In this document: positions 30,842 to 59,332 of the stretch, piece by piece
Layout: each line of letters opens with the position of its first letter
How positions within the stretch are numbered: position 1 is the first letter of the stretch
DNA from: a virus
Lineage: Duplodnaviria; Caudoviricetes
DNA length: 61,757 nucleotides
Virus record (IMG/VR): IMGVR_UViG_3300030098_005510
Span: 1-61,757 of that record
Reading direction: 5' to 3' (one strand)
The notes under the pieces: generated by a model
Told to the model about the DNA's origin: nothing
Seen by the model: the letters and a program-made list of their open reading frames with translations, nothing else
The model's database searches: none
Made by a program: the position numbers and the translations under genes

Positions 30842-30865
30842 AGCATTTCTTTCGTATTTTCATTA

Positions 30866-30872
30866 TATTTAT
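30866..30872 (+). promoter_or_regulatory. Putative late promoter TATTTAT
   Basis: 7 nt before ATG 30880, with no SD sequence. Confidence 0.55.
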
Positions 30873-30879
30873 AAATGTA

Positions 30880-33567: not shown

Positions 33568-33570
33568 AAG

Positions 33571-34074: not shown

Positions 34075-34076
34075 TT

Positions 34077-39300: not shown

Positions 39301-39569
39301 TGGAAAAGTTCGTTTCCTCACTCGCTCTTCGAGTTGGTCTAATCAATGTTTCTAATCTCCCAAGTCCTAACTTTCTCGTTATAGACGAAGGATTTGGAAC
39401 ACTCGATACAGACAATCTCTCAAACATGAAAGGCGCCTTTGAATACCTAAAAACAAGATTTGATTCTGTATTCATCATATCTCATTTAGATACAATCAAA
39501 GATTTTATGGATTATCTACTACCCGTTACTGTGGGTGATGATGGATTCTCTAAAGTAGTTTATAACTAA
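36357..39569 (+). CDS. Fused Mre11/SbcD nuclease and Rad50/SbcC ATPase (gp47-gp46-like)
   Basis: Phosphoesterase motifs ADIH, GGD, GNHD, HG and GDIH. Then Walker A APNHSGKS, coiled coil with CEYC hook, signature SSGME and Walker B IDEGFGTLD. Confidence 0.92.
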   Translation: MDKKIKKIAHLADIHIRKLHRFVEYRDVFNKLYKKLEELKPDLIYIGGDVVHGKLDTSPEEIRLLADFFLNLSNISKTIIITGNHDCNLNNKSREDVLSPVVDLVQQINPNLIYWKESGVYELGGCHFGLLSVFDITKDNKPNLKNLPRAKDIEGKNKIALYHGSVGTFEVDTGLKMSDDFVGVQDFDGYDMVLLGDIHKRQFLNKEETIAYCGSLIQQNFAESPEHGFLLWDVETRKSEFIQIKNDYGYKTIRVEDGDIKSKMNFVPRFGNLKVKHRNTPVEQLRLIEMDLRKKYTEIKSVAFEKMDSIENRLNESSTKISIEDIHDLKVQNGLIEKVARLENPAIDDKTLQRLFDINEFTNSSIGMKNDLPRNVDWKLKYIEFGNMFSYGKRNKIDFTKLNGVVGVVAPNHSGKSALIDIIAYTIFDTCSRTFKAIEVLNNKSKNFEVKLSLEVNGVDYIIHRTGLLKERRVRKTGEIRRLCPVAVKFYVEENGELIDLSGAARSNSQYGTGTNEEIRKILGTFDDFILTSLSLQNNGQNFVDKKQSERKQILSQFMGIDLFDKLYDIAREDVADEKAYLRRIKEKNVFESMGRIEQKLKDLKKSKVEVEEKIEPVKKDLKDFKSQVEELKTKLKDVDDIKELNFDELISEKESELESQKENLKVEEEYKDNIRPLYNTIYSKLKEYDEETLDHNYKKFQECKEDLSKIKSDVTVKENQIKHLEVSLDEVREHQFDEDCEYCVKNSQWHIEKIKSLTSEIKDCKFQLDKILNDKYHREKDIKSFGDVEQNKAKYEELMEDLKRVEGDAYKTHAKIKELELSVEQTQSNLEKIQKDQQLFLDNASAIAYNRNIMQKVDKYQTQVKIGSDILEELDKELKKVDSTILIEETNQKNLGEEIKDLVEAEQKVADYEVYLRLVSRDGIPQLIINDALPIIENEVNAVLDHMMAGFQLGITNEDKNINLYIRYDDQEWPLNLSSGMEKFVSSLALRVGLINVSNLPSPNFLVIDEGFGTLDTDNLSNMKGAFEYLKTRFDSVFIISHLDTIKDFMDYLLPVTVGDDGFSKVVYN

Positions 39570-39727
39570 CGACTTCTCAATACATTTCGTGGTTTAGATT
39601 CACCACGCTTCAAACTAAGTATATGTTGATTTAACACAGCGCTCATAGTTGTACTTTCATCTCTAACATACAGTCTAAACCACTCCATAAGTGATTCATC
39701 TATTGTAAAAGAATATTTCTTCTTCAT
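39566..39727 (-). CDS. Ribbon-helix-helix DNA-binding protein (53 aa, not in the ORF track)
   Basis: MKKKYSFTIDESLMEWFRLYVRDESTTMSAVLNQHILSLKRGESKPRNVLRSR, a beta-strand plus two helices. GGAG RBS. Alternative in-frame ATG at 39742. Confidence 0.72.
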   Translation of the reverse strand: MKKKYSFTIDESLMEWFRLYVRDESTTMSAVLNQHILSLKRGESKPRNVLRSR

Positions 39728-39753
39728 ACCGATAGTCTCCATACTTTATACAT

Positions 39754-39790
39754 ATAAATATCGTTCATAAATTATTTTGTAAATATTTAT
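39754..39790. promoter_or_regulatory. Divergent pair of TATTTAT promoter motifs
   Basis: The minus-strand copy (39754-39760) faces the RHH gene. The plus-strand copy (39784-39790) is 7 nt before the fibre gene ATG. Confidence 0.55.
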
Positions 39791-39797
39791 TAATGAT

Positions 39798-42700
39798 ATG
39801 CCAGAACTATATAGTCAGATATTAGACCTCAAAGAAAAAGATGTATTTCTCGAAACTGAAGTAAATGACTCACGATATTTTAGTGTCACTGGTTTACCAT
39901 CTAGGTTAAGTTATGGAAAACATCCTTTTTCAATAACATTTAATGATCCTGAAGGCCAACCACTTCTTAAAAATTTATCTAATATAGTTTTCGAATTTGT
40001 TGATTCTAATGATACTGTAATATTTTCTGATTTATTAGACATAGAAGAACTTAGTGGTGCTGGTAATGGTGTTTTATGGATAAAGAAAGATCCTCTAAGA
40101 ACAGCAGATGAAATATCTGATGGTCCTGTTTATCTTTATGTGATGGGTGAGTTGGATGGAGATGAAATACCAAATGAGTGGAAGGGGATATATAATGTAA
40201 GAAGTACATTTGTTTTTGATGCTAGAAAAGATTATCCTAATACTTCTAATCTTGTTTTAAAAAATCCATTAGGAATACAAACAAATCTAAATATATCAGA
40301 GAGTGTAGAGTTTGATACTGCTGATACTGTATTTAAAAGAAGTTTTATAAATGTGTCTCTGACCGACTTAGACACCGATGGTGGTAAAGTAGAATCTGTT
40401 GAGTTGGCATATAATGAAGAAAAAGCTCAAACAGATGATTATGAAATAATAACCACATATCCACTTACAAGTGGTTCATATGAGGTCACAGACATAACAA
40501 AAATATCTGGTCTAAATCCAATAACGAATACTACAAAGATATCAACACCTAAACAATTTAGACGAGACACATCGGTCAGATTCAGACTAAGATTTTTAAA
40601 TCCTGCTGGTGAATTTGCACAATATTTAGATGAAGATAGACAAGGTGAAATAGTAGAGGTCACTTCATCTTTTTTAACTTTCGAAAGCTCACCAACATTT
40701 ATAGAAAAAACTGACAATTTATTAACCGGTTCTTTTAGTGTTGGAGTTGATGTAGGAAAGGGATTTACATTTTCTGGTGCTAAATCAGCAGAGCTATCAA
40801 CTGTTGATTATCAAGGTTTCACAAGTGCATCTGCTGGTTCAGGTTCTGGTATACTTATGTTTTCTGGTTCTGTGAAAAGTGATGTGACAGATGATTATTC
40901 TTTAGGTGGTGTTGGATTAGAATTAGTTGCTGATAGCTCAAGTTTTTTTAGATTTAGAACAAATCCAAAAGAGTTGGATATAAGAGCTAATGCCTTTTTT
41001 ATTGGTTCAGAAACAAGTCAATTTATAAGCGGTTCAAGTGGCGATATAGAAATAAGTTCCTCTGTATTTCATTTAGATCCAGCTAATAGTTTGGTTTCAA
41101 TTAGTGGTAGTATTAATGCCACAGATGGTACTATTGGTGGTTGGAATATTGAAAATGATAAATTAGTAAATTTAGAAAATACTGTAGAGCTGAATAGCAC
41201 CACGCCTGGTTTAAATATAAAAGATGCTGGTGGTATAGATAGAGTAACGATTAAATCTGGATCTTTTTTAACAATAGGTGAAGGAACACAATACATTGGA
41301 AATAAAAGTTTCGAAGATGATACAATATCAGCTGGTAGAAACTTTGTTTCAAATATAACAAGTTGGTCTTTCTCTGAAGGCGGTGGTGTAAATATAAGTT
41401 TGACTGATAGAAGTTCTTTTCCTGACGATGAAAAAGCTGTAAGTGGTGATGTAACTTTGGATGTGGTAGTACCATCAGGTGGTAGCAACTATACCACTAA
41501 AAATAACTATGAATTAGTACAAGTTATAACGGCTTCTTTTAATGCGGGTGATACTCTTTCATTTAGTTCAGTAGCAAGATTTAGTTCATCATTTGGCGGT
41601 AAAGGAAAAGATAGAGCGTTAGGACCACAGTATTTTAGATTGGAATATAGTTCATCTACGTCAAATGGATTCAAATCGTTTTTACCAGCAAATGACTTTA
41701 CAGCTTCAAACGGCTACGGTGAATACTTTTTAGGAAGTGGTCAATATAATAGTTTTGGTGCATCAGCAGAGATGCCAGAAGCATCTGATTTTGTTCGAGT
41801 AATACTTACTGGTAGTATAAATGATGATACTGGTTACACAATTAAAAAACCTTTATTTGCGGAACGTAAAAGAAATAAAGATTTAGGCAATAAAATTTTT
41901 AGTAAAACAATTAAGGGAAGTGCTACAGCCGAGTTTCCTGAAACTGAGTTAAATTTTGATAATTTTTCTTTAAGAAGTAACACAAGAAAAGTTGAACTTA
42001 CTGAAAAGGGTTTATTAATTTATAACTCAGAAGATAGTTTCTTAAAAATGGATGCTAGTGGTATTGAGTTTAGGGGTGGTAGTGGTGTAACGACTTTTGG
42101 TCAATCAATAGCAAGAGAGACTTTTACAAACGATAGTGATGTTGCGGGTAGATTAGGAGCACCTGCATTACAAGCTTATCAATCAGATCCTGAGGATATC
42201 GGAACAACCGCATTTGATGGAAACGTAGGTGAATTTGCAAAAGGAAATCATAGACATAGAATAACATCTACGACAATAAATAATGTAATAAGTTCTTCAG
42301 TCTTGAATGTCGGCGGATTGATTTCAAGTGGTGATATTACGGCTGAAAACTTTATTGTTAAATCAACAGTTACACAAATTACACAATCATTCAGTAGTGG
42401 TTCTACAATATTCGGTGATTCTACTGATGATACTCACCAATTTACAGGATCTTTATTCGTAACAAGTTCAGCATTGACGATTGATAGTGCTGGTACTGTA
42501 AGTGGTTCATCAACCTCAACTGGTTCGTTTGGTGCTGGTAGATTTGCAGGAAAGGTTGGCATCGGCACCACAGGACCGTCTGCTGCTTTACATATATCAG
42601 AAACTAACGATGGTGGGGATACAGCAATAATCCTAAATAATAACGCAGGTGTTGGTTCTACAAATGAAACTGTGTCATTATTTTTTACACATACAGGTAT

Positions 42701-45700
42701 TGCTGGTGGTAAAATAGTATCTGGTAGGACTTTTAATTATTCTACTGTAGCTAACCGAGATAGTAATTTACAGTTTTTCACAACTCAGAATGCGACCGAC
42801 ACATTAGCTCTAACGCTTGATGCTGACCAGAATACAATATTTGCTGGGAATGCGAGTGGTTCATCAACATCAACTGCTTCATTTGGTGTTGTAAGAGCTG
42901 GTAATGGTATAAATAGATTTGGTAATTTATTAACTGATACTCATCAATTTACAGGTTCATTAGAAGTAACTGGTTCGTTTTTGGTAAATGGCGGTGGAGT
43001 CGCCACAACACCTGGTAGCGATAAAGAAGTTGTATTTAATGATGGTGGTTCATTAGGTTCTACATCTGCTTTTACTTTTGATAAAACCACAAATCATTTA
43101 TCAGCAAGTTTACCATCAACCGCATCATTTGGAAAAATATTACAAAATGGTCAAACACTTGCTTCTGTTGGTGGTGCTGATACAAATGTTCTTATAAATA
43201 CAGGAGGTGTAATATCAGGTTCAAATGAATTTGTTTATGACGACTCGACAAATAGGGTTGGCATCGGAGTAAGTCCTTCGTTTTTATTTCATGTTCAAAA
43301 ACAAGTGGATGGTGATTATGTTGGTTTCTTTAAAAATTCAGATTCGGATAATGGATTTGGTGTTGGGATTGATGCTGGTGATGATGCGAATGTAAGAGCT
43401 TTACAAATTAGAAATCATAATGGTAGTGCGGAGTCATTTATAGTAGATGGTGCTGGTAATGCTTTGTTTCCAAGAGCTAATGCAAAAATTAGTGGTTCAG
43501 CAACTTCGACAGGTTCGTTTGGTCAAGGACACTTCGATGGTAGGGTTGGGATTGGAATACAAACACCTGATATAGCTGCAACATCGTTAGACCATTTGGT
43601 TGTTGGAAAACCTGGAACTGGTGTTGCTATGAGTGGAACAAGTCATGTTGGAATTGTGATAGGTACTGGAACTTCTCATATTGGTAGGATTTCATTTCTC
43701 GATAGTCTATCAGCTTTTGGTGGCGCAATTGATTACCATCATGGTGCTGGTTCGGGTGGTGTTGATACCCTAAAATTTTACACAGACAATTATACACAGA
43801 GATTATGTTTAGAAGGTAATAAAATAAGTGGTTCATCAACCTCAACTGGTTCGTTTGCAAAATTAATAACAAAAAATGCAGATATCCAAGATTCTGCCGG
43901 AAACACCTTAATAGGATATGATCCTGGTGATATAGCAAGTGATGAGACAATCAATTTCAAAATAGGTGATGTGGATGGTGTTACTACTGGTGCTACATTA
44001 CAATTAGATGTAGTTAATACAGAAGTTATTTTAAATGACATGAAACTTATAATTCCTGAAACGATTGAACATCAGGGAGACGCGGATACAATTATAGCTT
44101 TTGCTAACGATAAAATAAGATTCAAAGCAGGAGTCGAAGGAGTCTCTCAAGACTTACTTCATCTTAGTGGTTCAAGAATAAGTGGTTCAGTTGCCTCAAC
44201 AGGTTCGTTCGGTAATTTAACTGTTGCGAAGGATTTGATGATGTCCAATGGTAAAGTTTTAAATTGGGGAACTTCTCATGGAACTCTCAGTTCAGCAATT
44301 GTTGGTAATTCAAGCACTAATGTTTTAGTATTTTATACGAATGGTTCTGAAAGAGCTAGATTTAACAGTTCAGGTAATTTAGGCATCGGCACTTCAAGTC
44401 CAGATGGGTTAGTACATGCCTTTAGTGGAAATGCATCTCAAACAGCAAATGCCGCTGCAAATCAACTTATTGCAGAAAATAACACAAATGCTGGTGTCTC
44501 TATTTTGTCAGGTACAAGTCATAGTGGTGCAATATATTTTGGAGATTCTGGTAATGCTAAAATAGGAACTATAATTTATGATCACGGAGATGAACAGTTA
44601 AGGATTGGAGTAAACGATGCTGTTATTTTAACATTAACGGATTCAAAAATAAGTGGTTCATCAACCTCAACTGGTTCATTTGGTGCTGGATTTTTTGATG
44701 GAAATGTTGGGGTAGGTATTGATCCTGATATGACAAGCTTCGATAGAGTATTGCATGTTGGTGGTACTAATACTGCTATAGTAAGATTTACTGGCACAAC
44801 CTATAGTGATACTGGTGGATATGTGGGTATGAACTTTGGTGGGGTGGATTTATTCAATCAAAGAAATAACTATTTGCGTTTTGGTACTAACAATACTGAA
44901 AGGATGAGAATTTCAAATGCTGGCAAAGTCGGCATCGGTGAATCACAACCAACTGTAGCCTTAGATGTTTCAGGTTCAGATAATCTATCGAGTAGAATTA
45001 GACTTGCTAAACATGCTAGTGGAACGAGTAAAATTTTACAACTTGGTGCTGATAGAGATACAACTGCAGTTCCATTCATAGGTGCTGAATCAAATCATGC
45101 CTTTGACATAATAACAAATAATACTCAACGAGTGCGTATAGATACTTCAGGTAATGTCGGCATCGGCACCACAAGTCCTTCTGATTACCATTCCCTAGCA
45201 AGTAATTTAGTTGTAGCTAGTTCGGGAGATACTGGTATAAGTCTTGTCTCTGGAACATCAAGTGATGGTAGAATATTTTTTGCAGATGGCACTAGCGGAG
45301 GTGATGAGTCAAGAGGTCACATTAGATATGACCATTCTGATAATAGTATGCATTTTGTTACCAATGATGCTGGTACTGCAATTAAAATAGACTCATCTGG
45401 TAATTCAGAGTTTCTGAGAGGAAACATAAGTGGTTCATCAACCTCAACGGGTTCGTTTGGAAGAGTTGATGCTCATAGCTTTCAAAATCCAAGTGGTTTA
45501 TTTTTAGGTAGCACAAACGCTGCACATGAGTTTAGTGAAATAACTTCTACCAATCATCTATTTATTGGAGCTGGTGCTTCAACAGTTCAAATGCAAAATG
45601 ATTTAATTCCTGATGGTGATGGAAGTCAAAACTTAGGTTCATCCAACAGAAATTTTAATCAAATTTTTGCTAAAGCAAAAGTTACTGGTTCATCAACTTC

Positions 45701-48700
45701 AACTGGTTCTTTTGGCTCGGTTGTAGCCGGTGGTGTTGGAGTAAATAGTTTTTCATCTAATGTTGGTGTTGGTTTAACTAGTCCTGAAACCATTCTTCAT
45801 ATCAGAGGAGCAGGTGATAAGTTTAGAGTTGATGCAAGTGATGGAACTCAAATTTTACAAATCCAAGAGTTTACAGGTAAGATAGCTGACATTATTGGAC
45901 CTGGTAATAAAGCCCTCAGAATTAATCACAATAGTAGTGGAGATGTTTTTATAGGAACAGGTGGTGGTAGTGTAATGTTAGGAAATACTGTTGCCAATCC
46001 AGCATCAGGTTTTTCTAATCAAAAAGGATTTGGCTTCAATGGTAGTACAGGACAAGTTCAGATAGCATCAAGTACAAATACTGCGGCATTGCAAATTGGA
46101 AAAAATCAAGGCACTGCTGGTGACCTCGTTATTTTTAGACACGAAAGTGTTTCGGTTGGTGCTATTGATACTGCTGGTGGAATAAGTGGTTCATCATCTT
46201 CAACTGGTTCGTTTGGTAAATTATTTATCGGTAATCAATCATTAACCAACACCGGAAATAGTGAGGTACAGTTTAGTCAAAATATTCAGTTGAGAGACGG
46301 TTTTGAATTACAAAATTCACTTGGGTTTAATATAGTTCGTCACGAGATAGATGCTTCTGACTCAGGTGAGGACTTAATTCTATTTGGTACAGACGATTCT
46401 CCAAACACCGATATTTTATTTATGACACCTGGTAATGCTGAGCTTCTATTATTAGAAAATGCTGGGAGTGCAAGATTTTATGGAGATGTCCGATTTACAA
46501 AAGCTAATGCAAAAATAAGTGGTTCATCAACCTCAACTGGTTCGTTTGGTAGAGTTGAAGCCACAACGATTACAGCACCTACTCTTGCTGGGAATACAAT
46601 AATTGATGGTAATTTAAGGACAATAGGTGATATAACTGCAGAAAACTTTATTGTGTCTTCTTCTGTAACAAGTATTACATATCAGTCTCTAAGTGGTTCA
46701 ACTGTTTTTGGTGATTCCTCTGATGACATACATCAATTTACTGGTTCGTTAATGGTATCAGCTTCTGGTCTGATAGGTATTGGCACAAACAACCCACAAA
46801 ATCCAATCCACATTAGAGGTACAGACGCTTTTATGTCATTTACTCATGAGACTAATGGTGCTCAAGCAGGTATTCTATATAGAAATACAAGTGGAACAAA
46901 TGTTGGTTTTGCTGCCTATAATTTTTCAAGTAACGTATGGCAAGTCAGAACTAATAATAATCTTGCTCTTACCCTTGACTCGGCTCAAGATGCTACCTTT
47001 GCCGGTCATATTGCTTTAGCCGCTACTAAAGGTATTTTCTTTGATGGTGGAAGTCATACTTCCATAGCTGAGTCATCTGGTGATAATTTAAGATTTCAAG
47101 TTGGTAATTCAAATGTGTTGGACATTACAACGACAAAAATAAGTGGTTCATTCACTTCAACTGGTTCATTTGGTCATTTAATAACAACTAACAACATCAT
47201 AATGAAAAATGAATTGGGTGCGCCTCATAATATGTTTGAATTTCATGATAAAAATGTTGCTATTCAAAGAGCACAAGGAGCTGATAGATCCAATACTGGA
47301 AACAGTCTATATCTTCATGCTTTTGAAGATATAATATTTACAGCACAAGGCACTACGGCAGCTAGTCAAACTGAAAGGATGCGTATAACTGAAGAAGGTG
47401 ATGTCGGCATCGGCACAGAAAGTCCTACAGCTCTTTTACATTTAGAAGCTGGTTCTGATAATGCAACTGGTGGTATTAGGTTCACTAATGACGACACAGG
47501 TGGTTCAACTGCTACCGATGGAACTGCTTTATTTTTAGAACAAAACACTACAGATTTCTTTATTAGAAATTATGAGAATGCTGGTATAAGATTAAGAACA
47601 AATGATACTGATGCTCTCTATATAAGTAGCGGTCAAAAAGTCGGTATCGGCACCACAAGTCCTGGTTCATTACTCACAATAAAAGATACTGGTGACATAT
47701 CGACCTCTACATTCATATCAGGTATAAGTGGTGATGGATTCAGAATAAAAGACAACGGTTCTGATGGTGTTAGTATGGAAATCGACAACATCACAGTTCG
47801 TAACACATTAAGAACTCATATATTCCAAAAAGATGTTGTTAGAGCTACAAATGGTATTTTATTTATATCAGATAGTGGTGTTATATCAGGCTCTACTGGA
47901 ACTACAAGTAGTGGTACAGTTACGTTTGACAATACCAAATCTGCTACTTTTTCTGATAATGATATACTGCTTTTCAAAGATGCTTCAGATGATGGTACGA
48001 TAAATGCCGTACAATTTCAAATAAATGGAAGCGTAAGTACGGCAGGAGATTTTGATACATACAATGTAGACAATGTAGTAGGTAATTTATCAAACCTGAA
48101 TACTGGCGGTACAGCAGCTAGGATAAGTGGTGGTACAGTAACAATAGACGCTTCATCACCTAATAGTCCTTTCGTAGATGTCAATGAGGCTAGTGGTTCA
48201 CCTGTAGTTAGAATGGGTAATTTAGCTGGAATTACATCTCCTCGATTTGGTGTAAATGATGAGTTTGGATTTTGGGCATCAGGCTCTGCTTATTTAGAAG
48301 GTGCTATAAATGCTAAGACAGGTAACATCGGTGGATGGGGAATAGGAGAAACTGCTATAAGTAGTTCAGGCGATAGTGTTATAATAGATGCTCTTACAAA
48401 AAGAATTACAGTTTCAGATGGTAGTAATGCTAGACTTTTCTTAGGTGAAGTTGATGGAGATGGTTCATCTTTTCCTGGCTCACCACAATTTGGAATAAAA
48501 ATATTTAATGGAAGTGGTGTCGCTGATGGAAATAGATTAGTTGAATTAGGTGAAGGTGCCAATATGATTGCGGGTTGGGATTTACTACCTGGTTCAATAA
48601 AATCAGATACCCAAGATGGAAGTGTAGCTTTGAGTTCTGTATCACAGTCATTAACGATTTGGACTGGTAGTATAAATCACGCTGAACCAAAACTTGTTTT

Positions 48701-51700
48701 AGGAAAACTACCAATCAATGACGGTACAGTCAATGAACCATATGGTTTAGCTGTTTTCGATGGTTCAGGTGTTGTTACATCAAGTGTAAACGATGCCAGT
48801 GCTTCAGTATTAATTACAGCAAACAAAGCTAGACTTGCTGGATGGGAGTTAGTGCCTGGTAGACTGAAGAGTGGAACGGTTGCTGATATAAATGGTAATA
48901 ATGCTTCACTAGCACTCGGAACTGGTGCAACAAGTGCTACTGGCACACCAACACAAGGATTGTTTTTTGTAAGTGCTTCTACACAACCAGTATTCTATGT
49001 GGGTGATACATTTTCATATGTAAATGATGTTTTAAAAGCTGGTGGTTGGGAGATTGGATTAGGACAAATATCAAGTTCAAAAGGAACAGCAAAACTTCTT
49101 AGTGATAATGGTGGAGCTTTTGCTCTTGGTTCTACACCACCAACGGATTATGAAAATGGAACTGGTGTATTTTTAAGTGGTAGTGGACAAGCCTTGTTTG
49201 GAAATGCTGCTGGTAGTAGAGTCCAATGGACAGGTACTGCATTACGAATTAGTTCCTCTGCGTTCAATCTTACTACTGATGGAAACTTGACGGCATCAAA
49301 CGGATTATTTCAAAATATAAGAATTGTCGGTGGTGCTGCTAATAATTCAATTGAAATGATAAGTGGTTCTTTAGGTCAACCAAACTTTATCGGTGGTGGT
49401 AACAATAACAAAATAGAAGCTAGTTACAATACTTTCTTAGGTGGTGGTCAAAATAATGTAGTATCTATGTCTAATCAATCTATTCTTGTTGGTGGTGATG
49501 GTAACGTCATAACAGGTGGTATTGAGCCCGGCCTCGGCACCTTTATTGGAGACAATGCGACAATTGCTGGTGGTAAAGAAAATATGATAGATACTGGTCC
49601 CAACGCCTTTATAGGTGGTGGTACAGAACACTACATAGGTCCTGGAAATAGAGGAATTGAACAAGCAATAGGAAGTGGTAATCCCACTATATTTAATGGA
49701 CCATATACTGAAGAATATAGCGATGGTACTGAAGTTGGAACTGTTGATGGACCAAAAAGAAGCACTTCATCTACAATTGGTGGGGGTGAGGGTAATTTAA
49801 TTAAAGCTTCAACAAATTCTACAATAGCTGGTGGTAGAGTTCATTATATAATTGATTCAGATGCTGCATCTATTGCGGGAGGATCTTTAGGAAAAATGAT
49901 TGATGCAGATCACAGTAACATTCTAGGTGGTATTAACAATCAAATAATTTCACAATCTCATTCAGTTGTTGCTGGTGGTGAACAAAATAAAATTGGTGAA
50001 AATGGTATACCAAATAGACTTACACAAGGTTCATTACAAGCCAGAAACTTTATAGGTGGTGGTTTTCAAAATTTTATATTTAATAGTCAACATTCAACTA
50101 TTCTTGGTGGAAACCAAAACACAGTACATACGGGTAGTGTTAAAGCAACAATATTAGGTGGGGAAGGAAATACCATAAGTAGTGGTTCTAATGCAATGAT
50201 TGGTGGCGGAGAAGATAATTTTATATCTCCTCCTGCAGCAGGAACATTTGGAGAATATGCTTTAATAGGCACTGGAAAAAATAACAGTATAATCAGTTCC
50301 GCAGACTTCAATGTGATTCTTGGTGGAGAAAACAATCACATAGGTAGCACACTCACAGATGTATTTGTCATAGGAAGTAATATAAGTGCATCATTGAGTA
50401 ACACTACATTTGTAGAGTCTTTAGTTGCACAAAACACCACAGATGCTAATGATTATGTAAAAGTCTCACATGATGGAACAGATGGAAATGTAGTATCAAA
50501 TAGAGGTTCATTAAAATTAGGTAGTCAAGGTAGTGCAAACGCAATAACCATTGATTCAAATGCCGATGTAATACTAAAGGCAGGTAAAAAATTATTCTTT
50601 GATGGTAGTGACAATACATATATTTTTGAAAGTTCAGACGGTGTGATAGATGTATATGGTGATAATGTTCATTTAATTTCATTTAAACAAAACGGTACAC
50701 AAAGTGAAGTTGTGGTTAATGAGGGTAGTGGCGATGTTGATTTCAGAGTAGAGGCAAATAACAACCAACACGCTTTCTTTGTTGAAGCAGAAGGACAAGG
50801 TAATGTAGAATTTCGAGGAACAAATCAAAAAATAAGTGGTTCATCAACCTCAACTGGTTCGTTTGGTTCATTAAGTCTCGGAGAATCATCCCATATTCAC
50901 ACTCTTAGTATAAAAGGTCATAGCGAGGGAAGCACTGGTATAAGAGTAAGACATCCATCGGATGATACCTTATTTGAGGTAAAGGCAAGTGAAGATGATG
51001 GTAGATTGAGGTTATTTGCTAATAACTCAAGAAAAATTCAACTTCATGCTAACGATGTCTCCTATTTCAATGGTGGAAATGTCGGCATCGGCACAGAGAG
51101 TCCTACCGCCAGAAAGCTAGAAGTAAAAGATACGAGTTCAAATGTAGGCATACGATTGACAACTGGTACATCATTGGATGCTATAATTGATTTCGGTGAT
51201 ACAGACGATGGCGACGCTGGTCGGATACAATACGACAACAACACCGATAAAATGCACTTTAGGACATCTGGATCCAATAGACTCACCATTGATAGTTCAG
51301 GAAACGTTACGCCAGGTAGTGATGATTCTCAGACTTTTGGTTCATCGTCAGAAAGATGGAAAGATATATTTGCTGTTCAAACAACAACTGGTGGTGTATT
51401 CGAGACAGGATTGAAAACAGAAAAGATTGGAGATAATCCAACAGGAACAATCGTAAGTTGGAGAGGAGATGGTTTAGTTCCTTGTGACTCGAATGAAGAC
51501 GAACTCGTAATGGGTGTGATTAAACAAGGTAAAGACGAACCAATTGTATTGGGTGCTGAGCCCGTATTAGTGACTGGTAAAGTAAACATTGGAGACTACA
51601 TTGTAACCTCTGATAAAATAGGTCATGGAAAAGCTGTTAAAAGAGGATATTTATTAAAGAAGGATTTATTTGGAAAAGTTATTGCTCAAGCACTCGAACC

Positions 51701-51752
51701 AAGTGATGATAGTGATTCGTGTTTGATAAAATGTATGATTAGGAAAATGTAA
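39798..51752 (+). CDS. Giant modular tail fibre/spike protein (3984 aa) with probable C-terminal chaperone domain
   Basis: G/S/T-rich, with repeated GNVGIGT and SGSSTSTGSFG linkers, IGGW motifs and a GG-x-x-N beta-helix region. C-terminal GDYIVTS...GHG...VIAQALE. Confidence 0.82.
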   Translation: MPELYSQILDLKEKDVFLETEVNDSRYFSVTGLPSRLSYGKHPFSITFNDPEGQPLLKNLSNIVFEFVDSNDTVIFSDLLDIEELSGAGNGVLWIKKDPLRTADEISDGPVYLYVMGELDGDEIPNEWKGIYNVRSTFVFDARKDYPNTSNLVLKNPLGIQTNLNISESVEFDTADTVFKRSFINVSLTDLDTDGGKVESVELAYNEEKAQTDDYEIITTYPLTSGSYEVTDITKISGLNPITNTTKISTPKQFRRDTSVRFRLRFLNPAGEFAQYLDEDRQGEIVEVTSSFLTFESSPTFIEKTDNLLTGSFSVGVDVGKGFTFSGAKSAELSTVDYQGFTSASAGSGSGILMFSGSVKSDVTDDYSLGGVGLELVADSSSFFRFRTNPKELDIRANAFFIGSETSQFISGSSGDIEISSSVFHLDPANSLVSISGSINATDGTIGGWNIENDKLVNLENTVELNSTTPGLNIKDAGGIDRVTIKSGSFLTIGEGTQYIGNKSFEDDTISAGRNFVSNITSWSFSEGGGVNISLTDRSSFPDDEKAVSGDVTLDVVVPSGGSNYTTKNNYELVQVITASFNAGDTLSFSSVARFSSSFGGKGKDRALGPQYFRLEYSSSTSNGFKSFLPANDFTASNGYGEYFLGSGQYNSFGASAEMPEASDFVRVILTGSINDDTGYTIKKPLFAERKRNKDLGNKIFSKTIKGSATAEFPETELNFDNFSLRSNTRKVELTEKGLLIYNSEDSFLKMDASGIEFRGGSGVTTFGQSIARETFTNDSDVAGRLGAPALQAYQSDPEDIGTTAFDGNVGEFAKGNHRHRITSTTINNVISSSVLNVGGLISSGDITAENFIVKSTVTQITQSFSSGSTIFGDSTDDTHQFTGSLFVTSSALTIDSAGTVSGSSTSTGSFGAGRFAGKVGIGTTGPSAALHISETNDGGDTAIILNNNAGVGSTNETVSLFFTHTGIAGGKIVSGRTFNYSTVANRDSNLQFFTTQNATDTLALTLDADQNTIFAGNASGSSTSTASFGVVRAGNGINRFGNLLTDTHQFTGSLEVTGSFLVNGGGVATTPGSDKEVVFNDGGSLGSTSAFTFDKTTNHLSASLPSTASFGKILQNGQTLASVGGADTNVLINTGGVISGSNEFVYDDSTNRVGIGVSPSFLFHVQKQVDGDYVGFFKNSDSDNGFGVGIDAGDDANVRALQIRNHNGSAESFIVDGAGNALFPRANAKISGSATSTGSFGQGHFDGRVGIGIQTPDIAATSLDHLVVGKPGTGVAMSGTSHVGIVIGTGTSHIGRISFLDSLSAFGGAIDYHHGAGSGGVDTLKFYTDNYTQRLCLEGNKISGSSTSTGSFAKLITKNADIQDSAGNTLIGYDPGDIASDETINFKIGDVDGVTTGATLQLDVVNTEVILNDMKLIIPETIEHQGDADTIIAFANDKIRFKAGVEGVSQDLLHLSGSRISGSVASTGSFGNLTVAKDLMMSNGKVLNWGTSHGTLSSAIVGNSSTNVLVFYTNGSERARFNSSGNLGIGTSSPDGLVHAFSGNASQTANAAANQLIAENNTNAGVSILSGTSHSGAIYFGDSGNAKIGTIIYDHGDEQLRIGVNDAVILTLTDSKISGSSTSTGSFGAGFFDGNVGVGIDPDMTSFDRVLHVGGTNTAIVRFTGTTYSDTGGYVGMNFGGVDLFNQRNNYLRFGTNNTERMRISNAGKVGIGESQPTVALDVSGSDNLSSRIRLAKHASGTSKILQLGADRDTTAVPFIGAESNHAFDIITNNTQRVRIDTSGNVGIGTTSPSDYHSLASNLVVASSGDTGISLVSGTSSDGRIFFADGTSGGDESRGHIRYDHSDNSMHFVTNDAGTAIKIDSSGNSEFLRGNISGSSTSTGSFGRVDAHSFQNPSGLFLGSTNAAHEFSEITSTNHLFIGAGASTVQMQNDLIPDGDGSQNLGSSNRNFNQIFAKAKVTGSSTSTGSFGSVVAGGVGVNSFSSNVGVGLTSPETILHIRGAGDKFRVDASDGTQILQIQEFTGKIADIIGPGNKALRINHNSSGDVFIGTGGGSVMLGNTVANPASGFSNQKGFGFNGSTGQVQIASSTNTAALQIGKNQGTAGDLVIFRHESVSVGAIDTAGGISGSSSSTGSFGKLFIGNQSLTNTGNSEVQFSQNIQLRDGFELQNSLGFNIVRHEIDASDSGEDLILFGTDDSPNTDILFMTPGNAELLLLENAGSARFYGDVRFTKANAKISGSSTSTGSFGRVEATTITAPTLAGNTIIDGNLRTIGDITAENFIVSSSVTSITYQSLSGSTVFGDSSDDIHQFTGSLMVSASGLIGIGTNNPQNPIHIRGTDAFMSFTHETNGAQAGILYRNTSGTNVGFAAYNFSSNVWQVRTNNNLALTLDSAQDATFAGHIALAATKGIFFDGGSHTSIAESSGDNLRFQVGNSNVLDITTTKISGSFTSTGSFGHLITTNNIIMKNELGAPHNMFEFHDKNVAIQRAQGADRSNTGNSLYLHAFEDIIFTAQGTTAASQTERMRITEEGDVGIGTESPTALLHLEAGSDNATGGIRFTNDDTGGSTATDGTALFLEQNTTDFFIRNYENAGIRLRTNDTDALYISSGQKVGIGTTSPGSLLTIKDTGDISTSTFISGISGDGFRIKDNGSDGVSMEIDNITVRNTLRTHIFQKDVVRATNGILFISDSGVISGSTGTTSSGTVTFDNTKSATFSDNDILLFKDASDDGTINAVQFQINGSVSTAGDFDTYNVDNVVGNLSNLNTGGTAARISGGTVTIDASSPNSPFVDVNEASGSPVVRMGNLAGITSPRFGVNDEFGFWASGSAYLEGAINAKTGNIGGWGIGETAISSSGDSVIIDALTKRITVSDGSNARLFLGEVDGDGSSFPGSPQFGIKIFNGSGVADGNRLVELGEGANMIAGWDLLPGSIKSDTQDGSVALSSVSQSLTIWTGSINHAEPKLVLGKLPINDGTVNEPYGLAVFDGSGVVTSSVNDASASVLITANKARLAGWELVPGRLKSGTVADINGNNASLALGTGATSATGTPTQGLFFVSASTQPVFYVGDTFSYVNDVLKAGGWEIGLGQISSSKGTAKLLSDNGGAFALGSTPPTDYENGTGVFLSGSGQALFGNAAGSRVQWTGTALRISSSAFNLTTDGNLTASNGLFQNIRIVGGAANNSIEMISGSLGQPNFIGGGNNNKIEASYNTFLGGGQNNVVSMSNQSILVGGDGNVITGGIEPGLGTFIGDNATIAGGKENMIDTGPNAFIGGGTEHYIGPGNRGIEQAIGSGNPTIFNGPYTEEYSDGTEVGTVDGPKRSTSSTIGGGEGNLIKASTNSTIAGGRVHYIIDSDAASIAGGSLGKMIDADHSNILGGINNQIISQSHSVVAGGEQNKIGENGIPNRLTQGSLQARNFIGGGFQNFIFNSQHSTILGGNQNTVHTGSVKATILGGEGNTISSGSNAMIGGGEDNFISPPAAGTFGEYALIGTGKNNSIISSADFNVILGGENNHIGSTLTDVFVIGSNISASLSNTTFVESLVAQNTTDANDYVKVSHDGTDGNVVSNRGSLKLGSQGSANAITIDSNADVILKAGKKLFFDGSDNTYIFESSDGVIDVYGDNVHLISFKQNGTQSEVVVNEGSGDVDFRVEANNNQHAFFVEAEGQGNVEFRGTNQKISGSSTSTGSFGSLSLGESSHIHTLSIKGHSEGSTGIRVRHPSDDTLFEVKASEDDGRLRLFANNSRKIQLHANDVSYFNGGNVGIGTESPTARKLEVKDTSSNVGIRLTTGTSLDAIIDFGDTDDGDAGRIQYDNNTDKMHFRTSGSNRLTIDSSGNVTPGSDDSQTFGSSSERWKDIFAVQTTTGGVFETGLKTEKIGDNPTGTIVSWRGDGLVPCDSNEDELVMGVIKQGKDEPIVLGAEPVLVTGKVNIGDYIVTSDKIGHGKAVKRGYLLKKDLFGKVIAQALEPSDDSDSCLIKCMIRKM

Positions 51753-54279
51753 TGGGAAAGATTCACATAGAAAATGGCATTATAAGTTCATCGGCTGATT
51801 ATAGTTTATTTCATGGAACATCTAAATTGGCAATTATTGAGCCTGGTGCTTTCAGAGTCCAAGGTGATTTAATTGCCGAAAACTATATTGTGAGTTCTTC
51901 TGTGACTTTTATGACCACATCTTTTAGTGATGGTTCAACACGATTCGGTAATTCTGATGCCGATACACATCATTTTCAAGGTATCATAAGTTCTAGTGTT
52001 GGAGGCTCAACTAATAATAATTCTGTTATCAGAGCTACAGGTGGTGGTGCCAGGCTTCTTTTAGATTCTGTGCATAATGAAACAACAACTGGTGTTCAAT
52101 TTTTAGAAGGTGCTTTTGGTACTGAAGCAAGTATCAATTATAATCACGCTACTGATACGATGGAATTTAAAGGAAGTGGGACTAACACGACATTAGTGTC
52201 CATAGATACAAGTGGAGATATTGAATTAGCCACTAACGATGCTAAGATAAAAGCAGACTCTACAAACACATTAAACATACAAGCACATCAGTTAAAGATT
52301 CTTGGTTCTGGTGGTGAGGAAAGATTTCAACTGCAAAGTGAAGGGAATGATAATCCTGGTGTGTTTATGATTAAACAATCTGAAGTACAAACCACCATTC
52401 AATTAAATTCAGCTGGAGATTCTTTTTTAAATGGTGGGAATGTCGGCATCGGCACATCAAATCCAGCTGGTAATTTAGAAATAGTAGGTGGTAACGGTAC
52501 TGTTAGTGGAACACCTGAGTCTGATGGAAATGAATTTGTAATTAGAAATAATGACAGAGCTGGTATGTCTATATTAGCTGGTGAGGGAACTGGAGATACA
52601 TCTAATGTGGTATTTGGTTCTACAAGTGACATGAATGGTGCTAGTTTAAATTATGAGTTTAATGCAAAACTGTTTAGAATGCAAAGTCAGCATCCTAGTT
52701 CGGAATTATCACTAGCAAGTGCTAATAATGTTGAGGCAGTAAGAATCGATACATCACAGAGAGTCGGCATCGGCGTCTCAAGTCCCGCACAAAGACTTCA
52801 TGTTTCCCAAAGTTCTGGAACGGCCGCTCTTATTGATGGTGATGGTAATGGTAACAATCCAATTCTTCATGTAAGAGACAGAGCAGATACATTTGTCGCA
52901 TTATTCGAGGGTAACAGAGCAGGAGACACAGGAGCTGCTGTAATGATTCGTCACAATCCAGCATCACCCGCCTCTAGTAATAGAACTCGTTTAAATTTTC
53001 AGATGCCCGATAATGGTGGAACTGCTACCACTTATGCTCAATTTGCTTCATTCATAGATAGTAACACCAATACTTCAGAGGAAGGTCATTTGAAAATCAA
53101 TACAATGACTGGTGGTTCTGTAACCGAACATCTACATATCGGTAATAATAAAATAAGTGGTTCAGCAGCCTCAACCGGTTCGTTTGGTTCGGTTCACACT
53201 GGTGGGCAAGTAGGTGTGCAAACTACAGCTCCAAAGAAAGGTTTGACTGTTAAAGCCACTGGTAATGATGATGGAATAGCACTTCTTGCAAGTAATGGTC
53301 AATATGTTGCACTAATTCATCAACAAGACTCAGATGCTGGAATGTTAAGATTACATGATGATTCTTCAACAACTAAAATAGCTTTCAATGCTGATAATGG
53401 AGGTAATTCTTTTTTCAATAATGACAACGGTAAAGTTGGCATCGGCACGGATAATCCTCAAAAAGATCTACATATACATCAAAACAATAGTAATGCTTTA
53501 CATGAAGCACTAACAATTAGAACAAACTCTAGTGGTGAGGGTTTAGCTCTTGGAGTCAATGCTGATAACTCCTCTTATGTGGTTAATTCTGATTCTGGTA
53601 ATGCATTACATTTAGGTGGTTCAAGTTCTACAATTAATAATACAGGTCATCTAACAGTTGATGGTGGTGGTAACATCGGCATCGGAACGGGAAGTCCTAC
53701 ACAAAAATTAGATATTCGTGGTGGAAATTTAATAATTTCGGCTAGTGGTGGAAGTGGTGTTATCTTCAAAGGAACAGGAGACGGTTCAAACAAAAATGCC
53801 CTATACTTCAAAAATGCCTCAAATACTGAAAAGTTTAGAATAATACACGATCCAAGTGCTAATGGAACTGATGATTTACAATTCAAAGCAAATGCAAATA
53901 GTGTGCCTGTAATGACAATGTTACAGAATGGAAATGTAGGCATCGGCACATCAAGTCCTGATTCTCTTTTACATTTAGAAACAGGCGGAAAAGCAACTCT
54001 TAGAATGACAAATTCTACTACAAGTACAACAGATGAAACTGAAATTGGCACAATAGAATTTGAAGGAAAAGATAGTTCTACTAATCGTTCAGGTGTAATG
54101 GCAAAGATTACATCTAGGTATAGTGATACAGGCACTGCTGGGGGTAGTACGATTGATGGTGGTGGTAATGAAGGTGGCAATATAGGATTTTTCACATCTA
54201 TTGCAACATCAGTTGGAGGTTCTCAAACACTTGCAGAAAAAATGAGAATTGAGAATAATGGGAATATTGGCATCGGCAC
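42558..54279 (+). repeat. Dispersed motif GGCATCGG(CAC) coding GIGT
   Basis: At least 13 copies in two fibre genes, 9 of them the full GGCATCGGCAC. Confidence 0.85.
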
Positions 54280-58453: not shown

Positions 58454-58466
58454 CAAAATTTCTTTA

Positions 58467-58473
58467 TATTTAT
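58467..58473 (+). promoter_or_regulatory. Putative late promoter TATTTAT
   Basis: Intergenic, upstream of the AGGA RBS of the 58497 gene. Confidence 0.5.
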
Positions 58474-58496
58474 ATATGAATAATTAGGATAAGTTT

Positions 58497-59331: not shown

Positions 59332-59332
59332 A

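What the first reader, a model, noticed from the sequence alone, without database searches (positions are those of the whole stretch)
42558..54279. GGCATCGGCAC conserved at the DNA level at fibre module starts: candidate recombination signal
Seen: the GIGT linker is encoded as GGC ATC GG(C AC) at 42558, 43260, 44382, 44931, 45159, 47406, 51084, 52445, 52766, 53438, 53678, 53939 and 54269. It often extends to GTCGGCATCGGCAC-N4-AGTCC. By eye, these genes otherwise prefer GGT/GGA for Gly and ATT/ATA for Ile, and the modules following each copy are unrelated in sequence. Protein-level selection does not explain fixed rare synonymous codons. Inference: this is a crossover or recognition site used to swap, add or delete fibre modules. 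It would be a host-range diversification system distinct from invertase shufflons and DGRs, since all copies are direct repeats and no recombinase or RT is in view. A co-translational pause signal is an alternative.
Basis: partly seen in the sequence, partly recalled or inferred. Interest (0 to 1): 0.75.

Follow-up and report, generated by a model that had tools for sequence, protein, structure and literature searches.

The report
Codon-locked joints between phage fibre modules
The giant tail-fibre genes of this uncultured marine phage are chains of dissimilar modules joined by short motifs always spelt in the same, otherwise rare, DNA letters, and related phages have swapped modules at these joints, a new example of a known way phages rebuild host-recognition fibres.

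Summary
Among 16 [VIL]GIG boxes, GGC, ATC and GGC fill 13, 14 and 12, against 6.6-7.4% background use. The neighbouring conserved Val, Thr and Pro codons are not locked. Module bodies are unrelated in 114 of 120 pairs, so recent duplication is excluded.

Homology blocks shared with related phages end at these boxes four times more often than chance (35 of 217 ends against 8.5 expected). Single junctions show a switch of parent inside the box.

The motif is not a special signal. A 33-36-nt ISGSSTSTGSFG box is locked more tightly and is a commoner junction (88 of 217 ends). Other lineages spell the same peptide differently. No invertase, integrase or RT was found.

Most likely these are passive short-homology seams for general recombination, kept uniform by constant module exchange, as at T-even His boxes and glycine-rich motifs. 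This scan has noted the same thing on at least seven other genomes.

The parts
39798..51752 (+). Fibre gene A (3984 aa). The N-terminal ~890 aa are collinear with relative G001. The centre is a module array.
51752..58453 (+). Fibre gene B (2233 aa); its start overlaps the stop of gene A.
59703..61757 (+). Fibre gene C, 3' open at the window end. It has ST boxes but no GIG box.
42555..42569 (+). GIG box: GTT GGC ATC GGC ACC (canonical core)
43257..43271 (+). GIG box: GTT GGC ATC GGA GTA (8-mer core only). A homology block shared with L255/G001 ends here.
43545..43559 (+). GIG box, non-canonical spelling: GTT GGG ATT GGA ATA
44379..44393 (+). GIG box: TTA GGC ATC GGC ACT (canonical core)
44928..44942 (+). 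GIG box: GTC GGC ATC GGT GAA (8-mer core). Left edge of the block shared with G001 (92.6%).
45156..45170 (+). GIG box: GTC GGC ATC GGC ACC (canonical). Right edge of the same block. In L255/G001 the sequence switches here to a gene-B module.
46773..46787 (+). GIG box, non-canonical: ATA GGT ATT GGC ACA. A block shared with L009/L010 ends here.
47403..47417 (+). GIG box: GTC GGC ATC GGC ACA (canonical). Left edge of the block shared with L011 (84%).
47640..47654 (+). GIG box: GTC GGT ATC GGC ACC. Right edge of the L011 block and left edge of the L092 block.
51081..51095 (+). GIG box: GTC GGC ATC GGC ACA (canonical)
52442..52456 (+). GIG box: GTC GGC ATC GGC ACA (canonical)
52763..52777 (+). GIG box: GTC GGC ATC GGC GTC (encodes VGIGV)
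53435..53449 (+). GIG box: GTT GGC ATC GGC ACG (canonical)
53675..53689 (+). GIG box: ATC GGC ATC GGA ACG (8-mer core). Left edge of the block shared with L009/L010/L011 (89%).
53936..53950 (+). GIG box: GTA GGC ATC GGC ACA (canonical). Right edge of that block.
54266..54280 (+). GIG box: ATT GGC ATC GGC ACC (canonical). The L012 block ends here and the L255/G001 block starts here.
42498..42533 (+). ST box (ISGSSTSTGSFG-coding, about 36 nt)
43488..43523 (+). ST box. Left edge of the 96.6% block shared with G001.
43824..43859 (+). ST box. Right edge of that block.
44178..44213 (+). ST box
44649..44684 (+). ST box
45426..45461 (+). ST box
45681..45716 (+). ST box
46182..46217 (+). ST box
46515..46550 (+). 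ST box
47139..47174 (+). ST box
50832..50867 (+). ST box
53153..53188 (+). ST box (the only one in gene B)
60132..60167 (+). ST box (gene C)
60462..60497 (+). ST box (gene C)
60570..60605 (+). ST box (gene C)
61176..61211 (+). ST box (gene C). A block shared with L009/L010/L257 ends here.
61566..61601 (+). ST box (gene C)
42329..42455 (+). Third box type (GDITAENFIV...FGDS.DDTHQFTGS, about 130 nt, 70-78% nt identity to copies in relatives), here inside gene A
   Evidence: (family D13)
46625..46753 (+). Third box type, second copy inside gene A
51862..51976 (+). Third box type, at the N-terminus of gene B
59849..59893 (+). Third box type, at the N-terminus of gene C (the 45-nt part reported by the repeat finder)
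   Evidence: D13

Best explanation
GGCATCGGCAC encodes the G-I-G-T of the conserved loop motif (V-G-I-G-T-x-x-P-x-x-x-L) found in the beta-helix regions of solved trimeric fibres of the Bdellovibrio MAT / S74 type.

In this lineage of uncultured marine myoviruses the motif is kept identical at the DNA level across dozens of otherwise unrelated modules, several fibre genes and several genomes. The same holds for a longer ISGSSTSTGSFG box and a THQFTGS box. These boxes act as in-frame seams. General recombination between short identical patches joins a module from one context to a module from another. This happens within a gene, between fibre genes of one genome, and between co-infecting relatives, and it also adds or deletes modules. 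The enzymes are presumably the phage's own T4-type machinery; a fused Mre11/Rad50-like nuclease is encoded next door. Selection keeps chimeras whose junctions lie at these motifs.

Modules turn over at least as fast as silent sites mutate, so the boxes evolve in concert. Whatever spelling the founder had, here G+C-ending rare codons, stays frozen while the module bodies diverge.

Shown: the codon lock, its confinement to the box, lineage-specific spellings, and junctions at boxes. Inferred: that DNA identity itself guides the crossovers, that exchange causes the lock, and the consequence for host range.
For: (1) Codon lock. GGC/ATC/GGC fill 13, 14 and 12 of 16 boxes against 6.6-7.4% background. 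The flanking conserved Gly, Val, Thr and Pro codons are not locked, with pairwise codon identity 0.25-0.39.

(2) A second, unrelated box shows the same behaviour. Its codons are AGT 16/17, GGT 17/17, TCA 17/17, TCG 14/17 and TTT 16/17. Across the lineage TCG fills 174 of 221 copies, while TCG is 4-6% of Ser codons in genes A and B.

(3) Not duplication. 114 of 120 pairs of module bodies show no blastp similarity at E<1e-3.

(4) The closest relative, G001, has a gp46-like protein 93% identical. It is collinear with window 28194-42469 at 86-97% nt identity apart from two indels near 30909-32365 and 34400. The fibre centre is reshuffled, with modules moved between genes A and B.

(5) Junction alignments. 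In L255/G001 a block 92.6% identical to gene A 44949-45178 runs into the box and continues as gene B 54290 onwards. In L011 a block homologous to 47403-47654 is bounded by boxes on both sides, with non-homologous flanks.

(6) Junction statistics. Of 217 unique ends of inter-contig homology blocks (>=150 nt, >=80% identity) inside fibre ORFs, 35 lie within 15 nt of a GIG box (8.5 expected) and 88 at an ST box (17.1 expected).

(7) Graded junction rate. An end falls in 90/3460 = 2.6% of control 45-nt windows, 9/79 = 11% of GIG boxes without the GGCATCGG spelling, 16/59 = 27% of GIG boxes with it (Fisher p = 0.025), and 33-39% of ST boxes, scored in wider 66-nt windows.

(8) Silent-site identity. 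Over all 15 x 23 paralogous ST-box pairs between the window and G001, codons are identical in 80% of identical residues. The value is 77% in the orthologous gp46-like gene and 61% in the orthologous N-terminus of gene A.

(9) The spelling is lineage specific. In an unbiased sample of the peptide motif in other low-G+C phage ORFs (86 instances in 39 ORFs), GGC is 5% at both Gly positions and ATC 15%. Yet in 15 of 15 ORFs with >=3 copies the copies share codons more than codon usage predicts, and in 9 of 15 at simulated p<=0.01. One example, L199, has its own near-invariant 30-nt spelling.

(10) Gly is GGT in the ST box and GGC in the GIG box of the same genes. This argues against a tRNA or accuracy explanation.
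Against: - The invariant GIG core is only 11-14 nt. At the L255 junction the two window parents share about 12 nt. From recalled knowledge this is below the homology usually needed for efficient RecA/UvsX-type exchange, so crossovers there would be microhomology events.
- Junctions at these motifs are also what selection on folded chimeras alone would give. Sequence comparison cannot separate where crossovers happen from which recombinants survive.
- The block ends counted are not independent. Each block is seen from both partners, and some loci are near-duplicates or parts of one contig (L009/L010, L010/L254, L255 within G001).
- The canonical versus non-canonical contrast is modest (p = 0.025). 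It is confounded by which sub-lineage has more relatives in the data. It is absent for ST boxes (62/158 against 17/52, p = 0.42).
- GIG-box codon identity to more distant lineage members is low, for example 0.24 against L261.
- No recombination event was observed directly. The metagenome contigs laid are short unitigs that break at repeats by construction.
Confidence: 0.6

Rival explanations
1. Structure-only filtering plus a separate reason for the codons. Crossovers occur anywhere by illegitimate recombination, and only chimeras joined at these conserved structural motifs fold. The rare codons are kept for translation (local speed, pausing or accuracy at a critical loop) or for an mRNA feature.
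For: - The box is a conserved structural element. It aligns to the repeated G-N-L-G-L-G-T-A-A-P-T-S-A-L-H-V-E type motif of the solved Bdellovibrio fibre Bd2133. That paper describes conserved capping loops on beta-helix edges (PMC10769870, passages).
- Even GIG boxes without the canonical spelling are junctions about four times more often than control windows (9/79 against 90/3460).
- All locked GIG codons are C-ending. From recalled knowledge these pair by Watson-Crick with G34 tRNAs.
Against: - In the same genes the equally conserved ST box fixes GGT (17/17, twice) and TTT (16/17), not GGC or TTC.
- Other low-G+C lineages encode the same loop with common codons: GGC 5%, ATC 15% of 86 instances.
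- The Thr and Pro of the motif are invariant as residues but free in codon.
- No tRNA genes are in the window, so no phage-specific decoding is in view.
Confidence: 0.17
2. A dedicated recognition site. A phage-encoded sequence-specific nuclease or recombinase recognises GGCATCGGCAC (and perhaps the ST box) and starts programmed module shuffling. This would be a host-range diversification system of a new kind.
For: - The conserved core has a sharp boundary of 9-11 nt.
- All 13 copies have one orientation and there are none elsewhere in the window.
- A recombination nuclease gene lies directly upstream of the fibre genes.
- About 66% of the genome is unseen.
Against: - At least three box types of unrelated sequence behave alike.
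- Spellings differ between lineages that all show internal uniformity. This fits identity among copies rather than one recognised word.
- No resolvase, tyrosine integrase or RT was found in the window.
- The upstream nuclease belongs to a family of general recombination and repair enzymes (PHROG 77, Pfam Metallophos).
Confidence: 0.07
3. Recent amplification. The boxes look alike because the modules were duplicated recently, and the bodies then diverged fast under diversifying selection or targeted hypermutation.
For: Six of 120 pairs of module bodies are detectable paralogues at 27-49% identity.
Against: - 114 of 120 pairs are not alignable, and the DNA of the bodies shares only patches of 16-27 nt.
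- Conserved residues only 1-4 codons from the core already have randomised codons.
- The same spelling is shared with genomes whose orthologous genes have 23-39% of silent codons changed.
- No RT was found, and the bodies differ by non-homology and indels, not by substitution at one base.
Confidence: 0.03

Closest known systems
Recombination at conserved motifs in the T-even distal tail-fibre and adhesin genes (gp37 'His boxes', gp38 glycine-rich motifs). Trojet et al. 2011, PMC3157838, passages read, which cites Tetart et al. 1996 and 1998; those two papers were not seen.
   Same: Host-recognition proteins are built of variable segments separated by short, highly conserved, Gly-rich motifs. 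[quoted passage not shown] General recombination does this, with no dedicated recombinase.
   Different: - A different protein family (long arrays of beta-helix modules, not gp37/gp38) and a different phage group (uncultured marine myovirus; best isolate matches are 31-35% in a baseplate protein).
- Three box types are used across three or more giant genes.
- A quantified silent-site lock on rare codons and lineage-specific spellings are shown here.
- I found no paper describing this for the VGIGT motif. One search returned 20 papers, and none of the 15 listed concerns phage fibres. Searches gave nothing relevant among the listed papers.
Mosaic adhesive trimer (MAT) fibres of Bdellovibrio bacteriovorus and S74-type phage fibres (Caulton et al. 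2024, PMC10769870, passages read; PDB 8ond, 8ojn)
   Same: - Sequence similarity of the modules to solved chains: 8ond E = 6e-7 and 8ojn E = 9e-4.
- The window's GNVGIGTSSPDSLLHLE-type box aligns to repeated GNLGLGTAAPTSALHVE-type motifs in Bd2133.
- The paper reports a conserved 'capping loop' consensus on beta-helix edges and calls the proteins chimeric.
   Different: - The paper deals with protein structure and prey recognition. In the passages I read it says nothing about DNA-level conservation or recombination at the motif; the word 'recombination' occurs twice in the text and was not among the passages shown.
- Its printed consensus, V-G-G/N-pi-X-X-P-X-X-X-L, is one residue shorter than V-G-I-G-T-x-x-P.
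- Its Supplementary Fig. 18 (alignment of loops) could not be seen.
- No S74 chaperone domain was detected here (Pfam: 0 families).
Short conserved sequences that mediate modular shuffling in T4-type genomes (Arbiol et al. 2010, PMC2839356; only the search listing and the start of the abstract were seen)
   Same: Short repeated DNA elements at module borders are proposed as substrates for recombination that swaps genome modules in T4-type phages.
   Different: Those elements are intergenic regulatory cassettes between genes. The boxes here are in-frame coding seams inside genes.
Shufflons and invertase systems, and diversity-generating retroelements
   Same: The outcome is the same: diversification of a receptor-binding protein.
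   Different: - Shufflons use inverted repeats and a site-specific recombinase. Here all copies are direct and no resolvase or integrase was found.
- DGRs use an RT and a template repeat. No RT was found, and the variation here is whole-module replacement.

Membership tests
Conserved-motif recombination in phage tail-fibre genes (T-even His-box / GRM type) | Variable segments are separated by short, strictly conserved peptide motifs. | tested here: met
   There are 16 [VIL]GIG and 17 S[TS]GSF boxes between dissimilar bodies.
Conserved-motif recombination in phage tail-fibre genes (T-even His-box / GRM type) | The motifs are also conserved as DNA, giving patches of identity. | tested here: met
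   An 11-14-nt core is present in 9-13 copies. A 33-nt ST core is exact in 18 stretches of other viral contigs.
Conserved-motif recombination in phage tail-fibre genes (T-even His-box / GRM type) | Natural chimeras have their junctions in or next to the motifs. | tested here: met
   Of 217 block ends, 35 and 88 lie at boxes against 8.5 and 17.1 expected.
Conserved-motif recombination in phage tail-fibre genes (T-even His-box / GRM type) | Recombinants at the motifs change host range (shown by crosses). | not testable with these tools
   The phage is uncultured and its host is unknown.
MAT / S74-type trimeric beta-helix fibre | Sequence similarity to solved members. | tested here: met
   phmmer gives 8ond_A at E = 6e-7 and 8ojn_C at E = 9e-4.
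MAT / S74-type trimeric beta-helix fibre | Capping-loop consensus V-G-G/N-pi-X-X-P-X-X-X-L (PMC10769870). | tested here: inconclusive
   The box aligns to the repeated motifs of Bd2133, but it is one residue longer than the printed consensus.
MAT / S74-type trimeric beta-helix fibre | C-terminal S74 intramolecular chaperone (in the S74 subgroup). | tested here: not met
   Pfam finds 0 families in proteins A and B at E<=0.01. The non-S74 subgroup of MATs also lacks this domain.
MAT / S74-type trimeric beta-helix fibre | Trimeric beta-helix fold. | not tested
   No structure prediction was run.
Shufflon / invertase switch | Inverted repeats plus a site-specific recombinase. | tested here: not met
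   All 13 copies are on one strand. PF00239 and PF00589 have no match in the window. Only about 34% of the genome is held.
Diversity-generating retroelement | Reverse transcriptase and a template/variable repeat pair differing at adenines. | tested here: not met
   PF00078 has no match. The modules differ by non-homology.

The most novel reading that the evidence does not exclude
The boxes are not merely passive leftovers but maintained recombination 'zip codes'. They are short, unusually G+C-rich patches in a 33% G+C genome: the core has 8 G/C in 11 nt. Their spelling would be kept either by GC-biased repair of heteroduplex at recombination hot spots, or by second-order selection for efficient annealing during exchange driven by the Mre11/Rad50-type nuclease. 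Each phage gene pool would then have its own spelling, which defines who can swap fibre modules with whom. That would be a DNA-level compatibility code for host-range evolution.

Supporting hints:
- The locked GIG codons are all G+C-ending.
- In the family-wide sample, third-position G+C of the GNVGIGT box exceeds the ORF background for the same residues in ORFs of 0.4-0.5 G+C (0.49 against 0.33, Wilcoxon p = 4e-5) and above 0.5 (0.74 against 0.57). It does not in ORFs below 0.4 (0.21 against 0.16, p = 0.38). The Pro codon just downstream is not raised.
- Junction rate rises with the length of the identical patch.
Probability: 0.15. Interest if true: 0.8.

Novelty: new member of a known kind. 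Interest (0 to 1): 0.45.

Why it matters
Tail fibres decide which cells a phage can attack. This locus shows, with counts, how an abundant but uncultured group of ocean myoviruses rebuilds fibres of 2000-4000 residues. Modules are cut and pasted at a small set of in-frame seams whose DNA spelling is frozen. Two phages whose neighbouring genes are 86-97% identical already have almost completely rearranged fibre centres.

The seams give a practical handle. They mark module borders for annotation. They predict where natural or engineered chimeras will be viable. Their lineage-specific spellings could be used to trace which phages share a fibre-module pool.

The principle itself is known from T-even coliphages, so the value is in its extent and quantification rather than in a new mechanism.

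Tried and rejected
- Universal codon preference at the motif: rejected. The exact 14-mer GTCGGCATCGGCAC hits 120 or more viral stretches of 32-70% G+C, many in the GNVGIGT frame. That search is biased by the pattern. The degenerate, codon-neutral search shows no such preference in other low-G+C phages.
- Recent duplication: rejected.
- Translation optimality or pausing: judged unlikely.
- Shufflon or DGR: no enzymes found in the window.
- Identifying the phage by DNA: no megablast match among phage records. In protein mode the best isolates are only 31-35% identical. PHROGs named 3 of 10 proteins tried.
- Pfam on the two giant proteins: 0 families.
- Metagenome runs: only Logan contigs were available. 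The many 'joints' and loose ends at box edges have sides of 22-38 nt and come from unitigs that break at repeats of 31 nt or more, and from other phages in the sample. I take them only as showing that the boxes sit in many different contexts in these communities. Summed depth in bins holding ST boxes is 5-20 times that of unique parts in run X8. Several different continuations lie behind 45179, 45461 and 46553. This is not evidence of ongoing recombination.
- The ungapped identity printed at the end (25/78) was out of register and is not used.
- One segment (57867-59432 against L011) failed for a frame reason and was dropped. One search replaced it with the gp46-like and gene-A N-terminal orthologues.
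- Literature: search 34 for the peptide words found 20 papers, none of the 15 listed on phage fibres. Searches gave nothing relevant among the listed papers. Tetart 1996 and 1998 were not seen and are cited only through PMC3157838. Sandmeier 1994 and Haggard-Ljungquist 1992 on fibre mosaics are recalled, not seen, and are not used as evidence. Supplementary files were not opened.
- No structure prediction, complex prediction, protein-database search or atlas search was run.

Full report
**1. What the window is**

The window is a whole viral-contig record of 61,757 bases, estimated to be 34% complete. Its G+C is about 29-35% outside the fibre genes and 37-41% inside them. It encodes a baseplate wedge protein (PHROGs). 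The best matches of that protein among isolated phages are Microcystis phage Mel-JY01 (34.5%) and Flavobacterium phages (31%), so this is an uncultured large myovirus. Runs that hold the stretch are labelled marine, seawater or estuary metagenomes.

Three consecutive + strand ORFs make up the fibre cluster:
- Gene A, 39798-51752, 3984 aa.
- Gene B, 51752-58453, 2233 aa.
- Gene C, 59703 to the window end, open at its 3' end.

Pfam recognises nothing in A or B. phmmer links the repeated modules to solved trimeric fibres of Bdellovibrio (8ond at E = 6e-7, 8ojn at E = 9e-4). In those alignments the window's GNVGIGTSSPDSLLHLE-type motif lies on the repeated GNLGLGTAAPTSALHVE-type motifs of Bd2133. 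The paper on these structures describes conserved capping loops on the edges of the beta-helix domains, shared with phage S74-type fibres (PMC10769870, passages). This explains why the peptide motif is conserved and why it recurs along the fibre.

**2. The observation**

GGCATCGGCAC occurs 9 times against 0.01 expected. GGCATCGG occurs 13 times against 0.26 expected. The longer form with AGTCC is exact in 3 copies.

I defined boxes by protein alone ([VIL]GIG), which gives 16 boxes:

| Position | Locked codon | In boxes | Background |
|---|---|---|---|
| First Gly | GGC | 13/16 | 6.6% of Gly codons outside boxes |
| Ile | ATC | 14/16 | 7.4% of Ile codons |
| Second Gly | GGC | 12/16 | 6.6% |
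| Val | GTC | 7/12 | 10% |

The lock is narrow. The equally conserved Gly two codons upstream, the Val, the Thr and the Pro have pairwise codon identities of 0.25-0.39, which is about what codon usage gives. The 80-residue bodies behind the boxes are unrelated in 114 of 120 pairs, and their DNA shares only 16-27-nt patches.

**3. It is not the only box**

The peptide ISGSSTSTGSFG is spelt ATA AGT GGT TCA TCA ACC TCA ACT GGT TCG TTT GGT in 17 copies over all three genes. AGT, GGT and TCA are fixed in 16-17 of 17 copies and the rare TCG in 14 of 17. TCG is 4-6% of Ser codons in genes A and B. A third repeated element (GDITAENFIV...DDTHQFTGS) stands at the N-termini of genes B and C and twice inside gene A (family D13).

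In the ST box Gly is always GGT and Phe is TTT. In the GIG box Gly is GGC. One tRNA-based or accuracy-based preference cannot give both.

**4. Is the spelling universal?**

No. A codon-neutral search for GNVGIGT..P in the viral collection gave 185 instances in 112 ORFs on 111 new loci. In the 39 ORFs below 40% G+C (86 instances), GGC is 5% at both Gly positions and ATC 15%. Yet copies inside one ORF tend to agree with each other. In 15 of 15 ORFs with three or more copies, codon identity exceeds the codon-usage expectation, and in 9 of 15 at simulated p<=0.01. L199, for example, has its own near-invariant 30-nt spelling. The locked word therefore differs between gene pools. What is general is uniformity within a pool.

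**5. Relatives of this phage**

Protein-guided and exact-box searches gave contigs of 35-38% G+C that share both spellings. Across them TCG fills 174 of 221 ST boxes.

The closest relative, G001, has a gp46-like protein 93% identical. It is collinear with window 28194-42469 at 86-97% nt identity apart from two indels near 30909-32365 and 34400. Collinearity ends just before the first ST box. After that only scattered blocks match, in a different order, and some have moved between genes A and B.

Silent-site identity puts this in proportion. Codons are identical in 77% of identical residues in the orthologous gp46-like gene and in 61% in the orthologous N-terminus of gene A. They are identical in 80% over all 15 x 23 non-orthologous ST-box pairs, and in 56% over GIG boxes when the free Val and Thr codons are counted in.

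**6. Junctions**

*Single cases.*
- In L255 (part of G001) a block 92.6% identical to gene A 44949-45178 runs into GGTAATGTCGGCATCGGCAC and continues as gene B from about 54290.
- In L011 a block homologous to 47403-47654 begins at GTCGGCATC and ends after GGCATCGGCACCACA, with unrelated sequence on both sides. The next block there corresponds to gene B 53678-53946.
- A 96.6% block (43472-43858) is bounded by two ST boxes.
- The window has one extra module, about 42469-42902, between two THQFTGS copies.

*Counts.* There are 150 inter-contig blocks of >=150 nt and >=80% identity, giving 217 unique ends inside fibre ORFs. Of these, 35 lie within 15 nt of a GIG box (8.5 expected) and 88 at an ST box (17.1 expected).

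I repeated the count on a set in which L009, L255 and L264 were replaced by the whole G001 fibre region; L010/L254, L250/L261 and L251/L260 stayed as pairs of loci from one contig each, compared only with other contigs. This gave 166 blocks. The share of windows that hold a block end was:

| Window type | With a block end | Share |
|---|---|---|
| Control 45-nt windows away from boxes | 90/3460 | 2.6% |
| GIG boxes without the GGCATCGG spelling | 9/79 | 11% |
| GIG boxes with GGCATCGG | 16/59 | 27% |
| ST boxes far from the 33-mer (66-nt windows) | 17/52 | 33% |
| ST boxes near the 33-mer (66-nt windows) | 62/158 | 39% |

The contrast between the two kinds of GIG box has Fisher p = 0.025. The ST contrast is not significant (p = 0.42).

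*Caveats.* The ends are not independent. The canonical versus non-canonical contrast may be confounded by sampling of sub-lineages.

**7. Mechanism**

The simplest account is that the boxes are in-frame seams of short DNA identity at which general recombination joins modules, with selection keeping well-folded chimeras. Turnover of modules is fast relative to silent mutation, as the G001 comparison shows. The boxes are therefore continually re-copied and evolve in concert, freezing a founder spelling.

The gene directly upstream of gene A is a fused Metallophos (Mre11/SbcD-like) plus SbcC-like nuclease. This is a general recombination enzyme of T4-type phages. I do not claim a specific link. 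No resolvase, integrase or RT is in the window.

Weak points:
- The GIG core is only 11-14 nt, so exchanges there are microhomology events.
- Sequence data cannot separate where crossovers occur from which products survive.

I put this account at 0.6. I put structure-only filtering with a separate codon constraint at 0.17, a dedicated recognition system at 0.07 and recent duplication at 0.03.

**8. Comparison with what is known**

[quoted passage not shown] 1996 and 1998, which I did not see. This locus works the same way. It meets the three sequence-testable features of that kind: motifs between variable segments, DNA-level conservation, and junctions at motifs. It differs in protein family, phage group, scale and the demonstrated silent-site lock. 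I file it as a new member of a known kind.

The scan's earlier notes describe the same phenomenon on at least seven other genomes, and the ST box of this genome was noted separately. Those notes are unverified. They agree with what I found here.

**9. Metagenome contigs**

Contigs of four runs laid on 41000-58500 show much higher summed depth in bins that hold ST boxes, and several different continuations at box edges. These are short unitigs that break at repeats. They show only that the boxes occur in many contexts in those communities.

Noticed in passing
window 42329-42455, 46625-46753, 51862-51976, 59849-59893: A third repeated element (GD-I/L-TAENFIV...FGDS.DDTHQFTGS) marks the N-termini of genes B and C and occurs twice inside gene A. 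Gene A therefore looks like a head-to-tail fusion of fibre-gene units. The window has one extra module (about 42469-42902) between two THQFTGS copies relative to G001.
   Followed up: partly
window 36333-39569 and 35420-36364: The gene directly upstream of fibre gene A is a single 1078-aa protein. It has an N-terminal Metallophos (Mre11/SbcD-like) domain and an SbcC-like remainder, so the two nuclease subunits are fused. The ORF before it is a Toprim/DnaG-like primase.
   Followed up: partly
loci L135-L245 (family-wide sample): Third-position G+C of the GNVGIGT box exceeds the ORF background for the same residues in ORFs of 0.4-0.5 G+C (0.49 against 0.33) and above 0.5 (0.74 against 0.57). It does not in ORFs below 0.4 (0.21 against 0.16). 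The Pro codon just downstream is not raised. This could reflect GC-biased conversion or selection for stable annealing.
   Followed up: partly
window 30909-32365: This 1.46-kb stretch is absent from the close relative G001, and about 30 nt of G001 match both edges. It may be another indel between short repeated coding sequences.
   Followed up: no
L199, L235, L182, L193 (other phage lineages): Other fibre genes carry their own near-invariant spellings of the same peptide box. In L199 it is GGC AAC GTC GGT ATC GGG ACG ACG AGT CCG. Within-ORF codon identity is 0.71-0.94 against 0.37-0.46 expected.
   Followed up: partly
L050 (record labelled GVMAG, 32% G+C): A contig labelled as a giant-virus MAG has a 1641-aa ORF with eight VGIG boxes, six of them spelt GGC ATC GGC. 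Either it is a phage contig under another label, or the same fibre module pool reaches further.
   Followed up: no
window 53647-54195 (- strand): A 182-aa antisense ORF overlaps the module array of gene B. It is probably a chance frame in Gly/Ser/Thr-rich coding DNA and was not examined.
   Followed up: no
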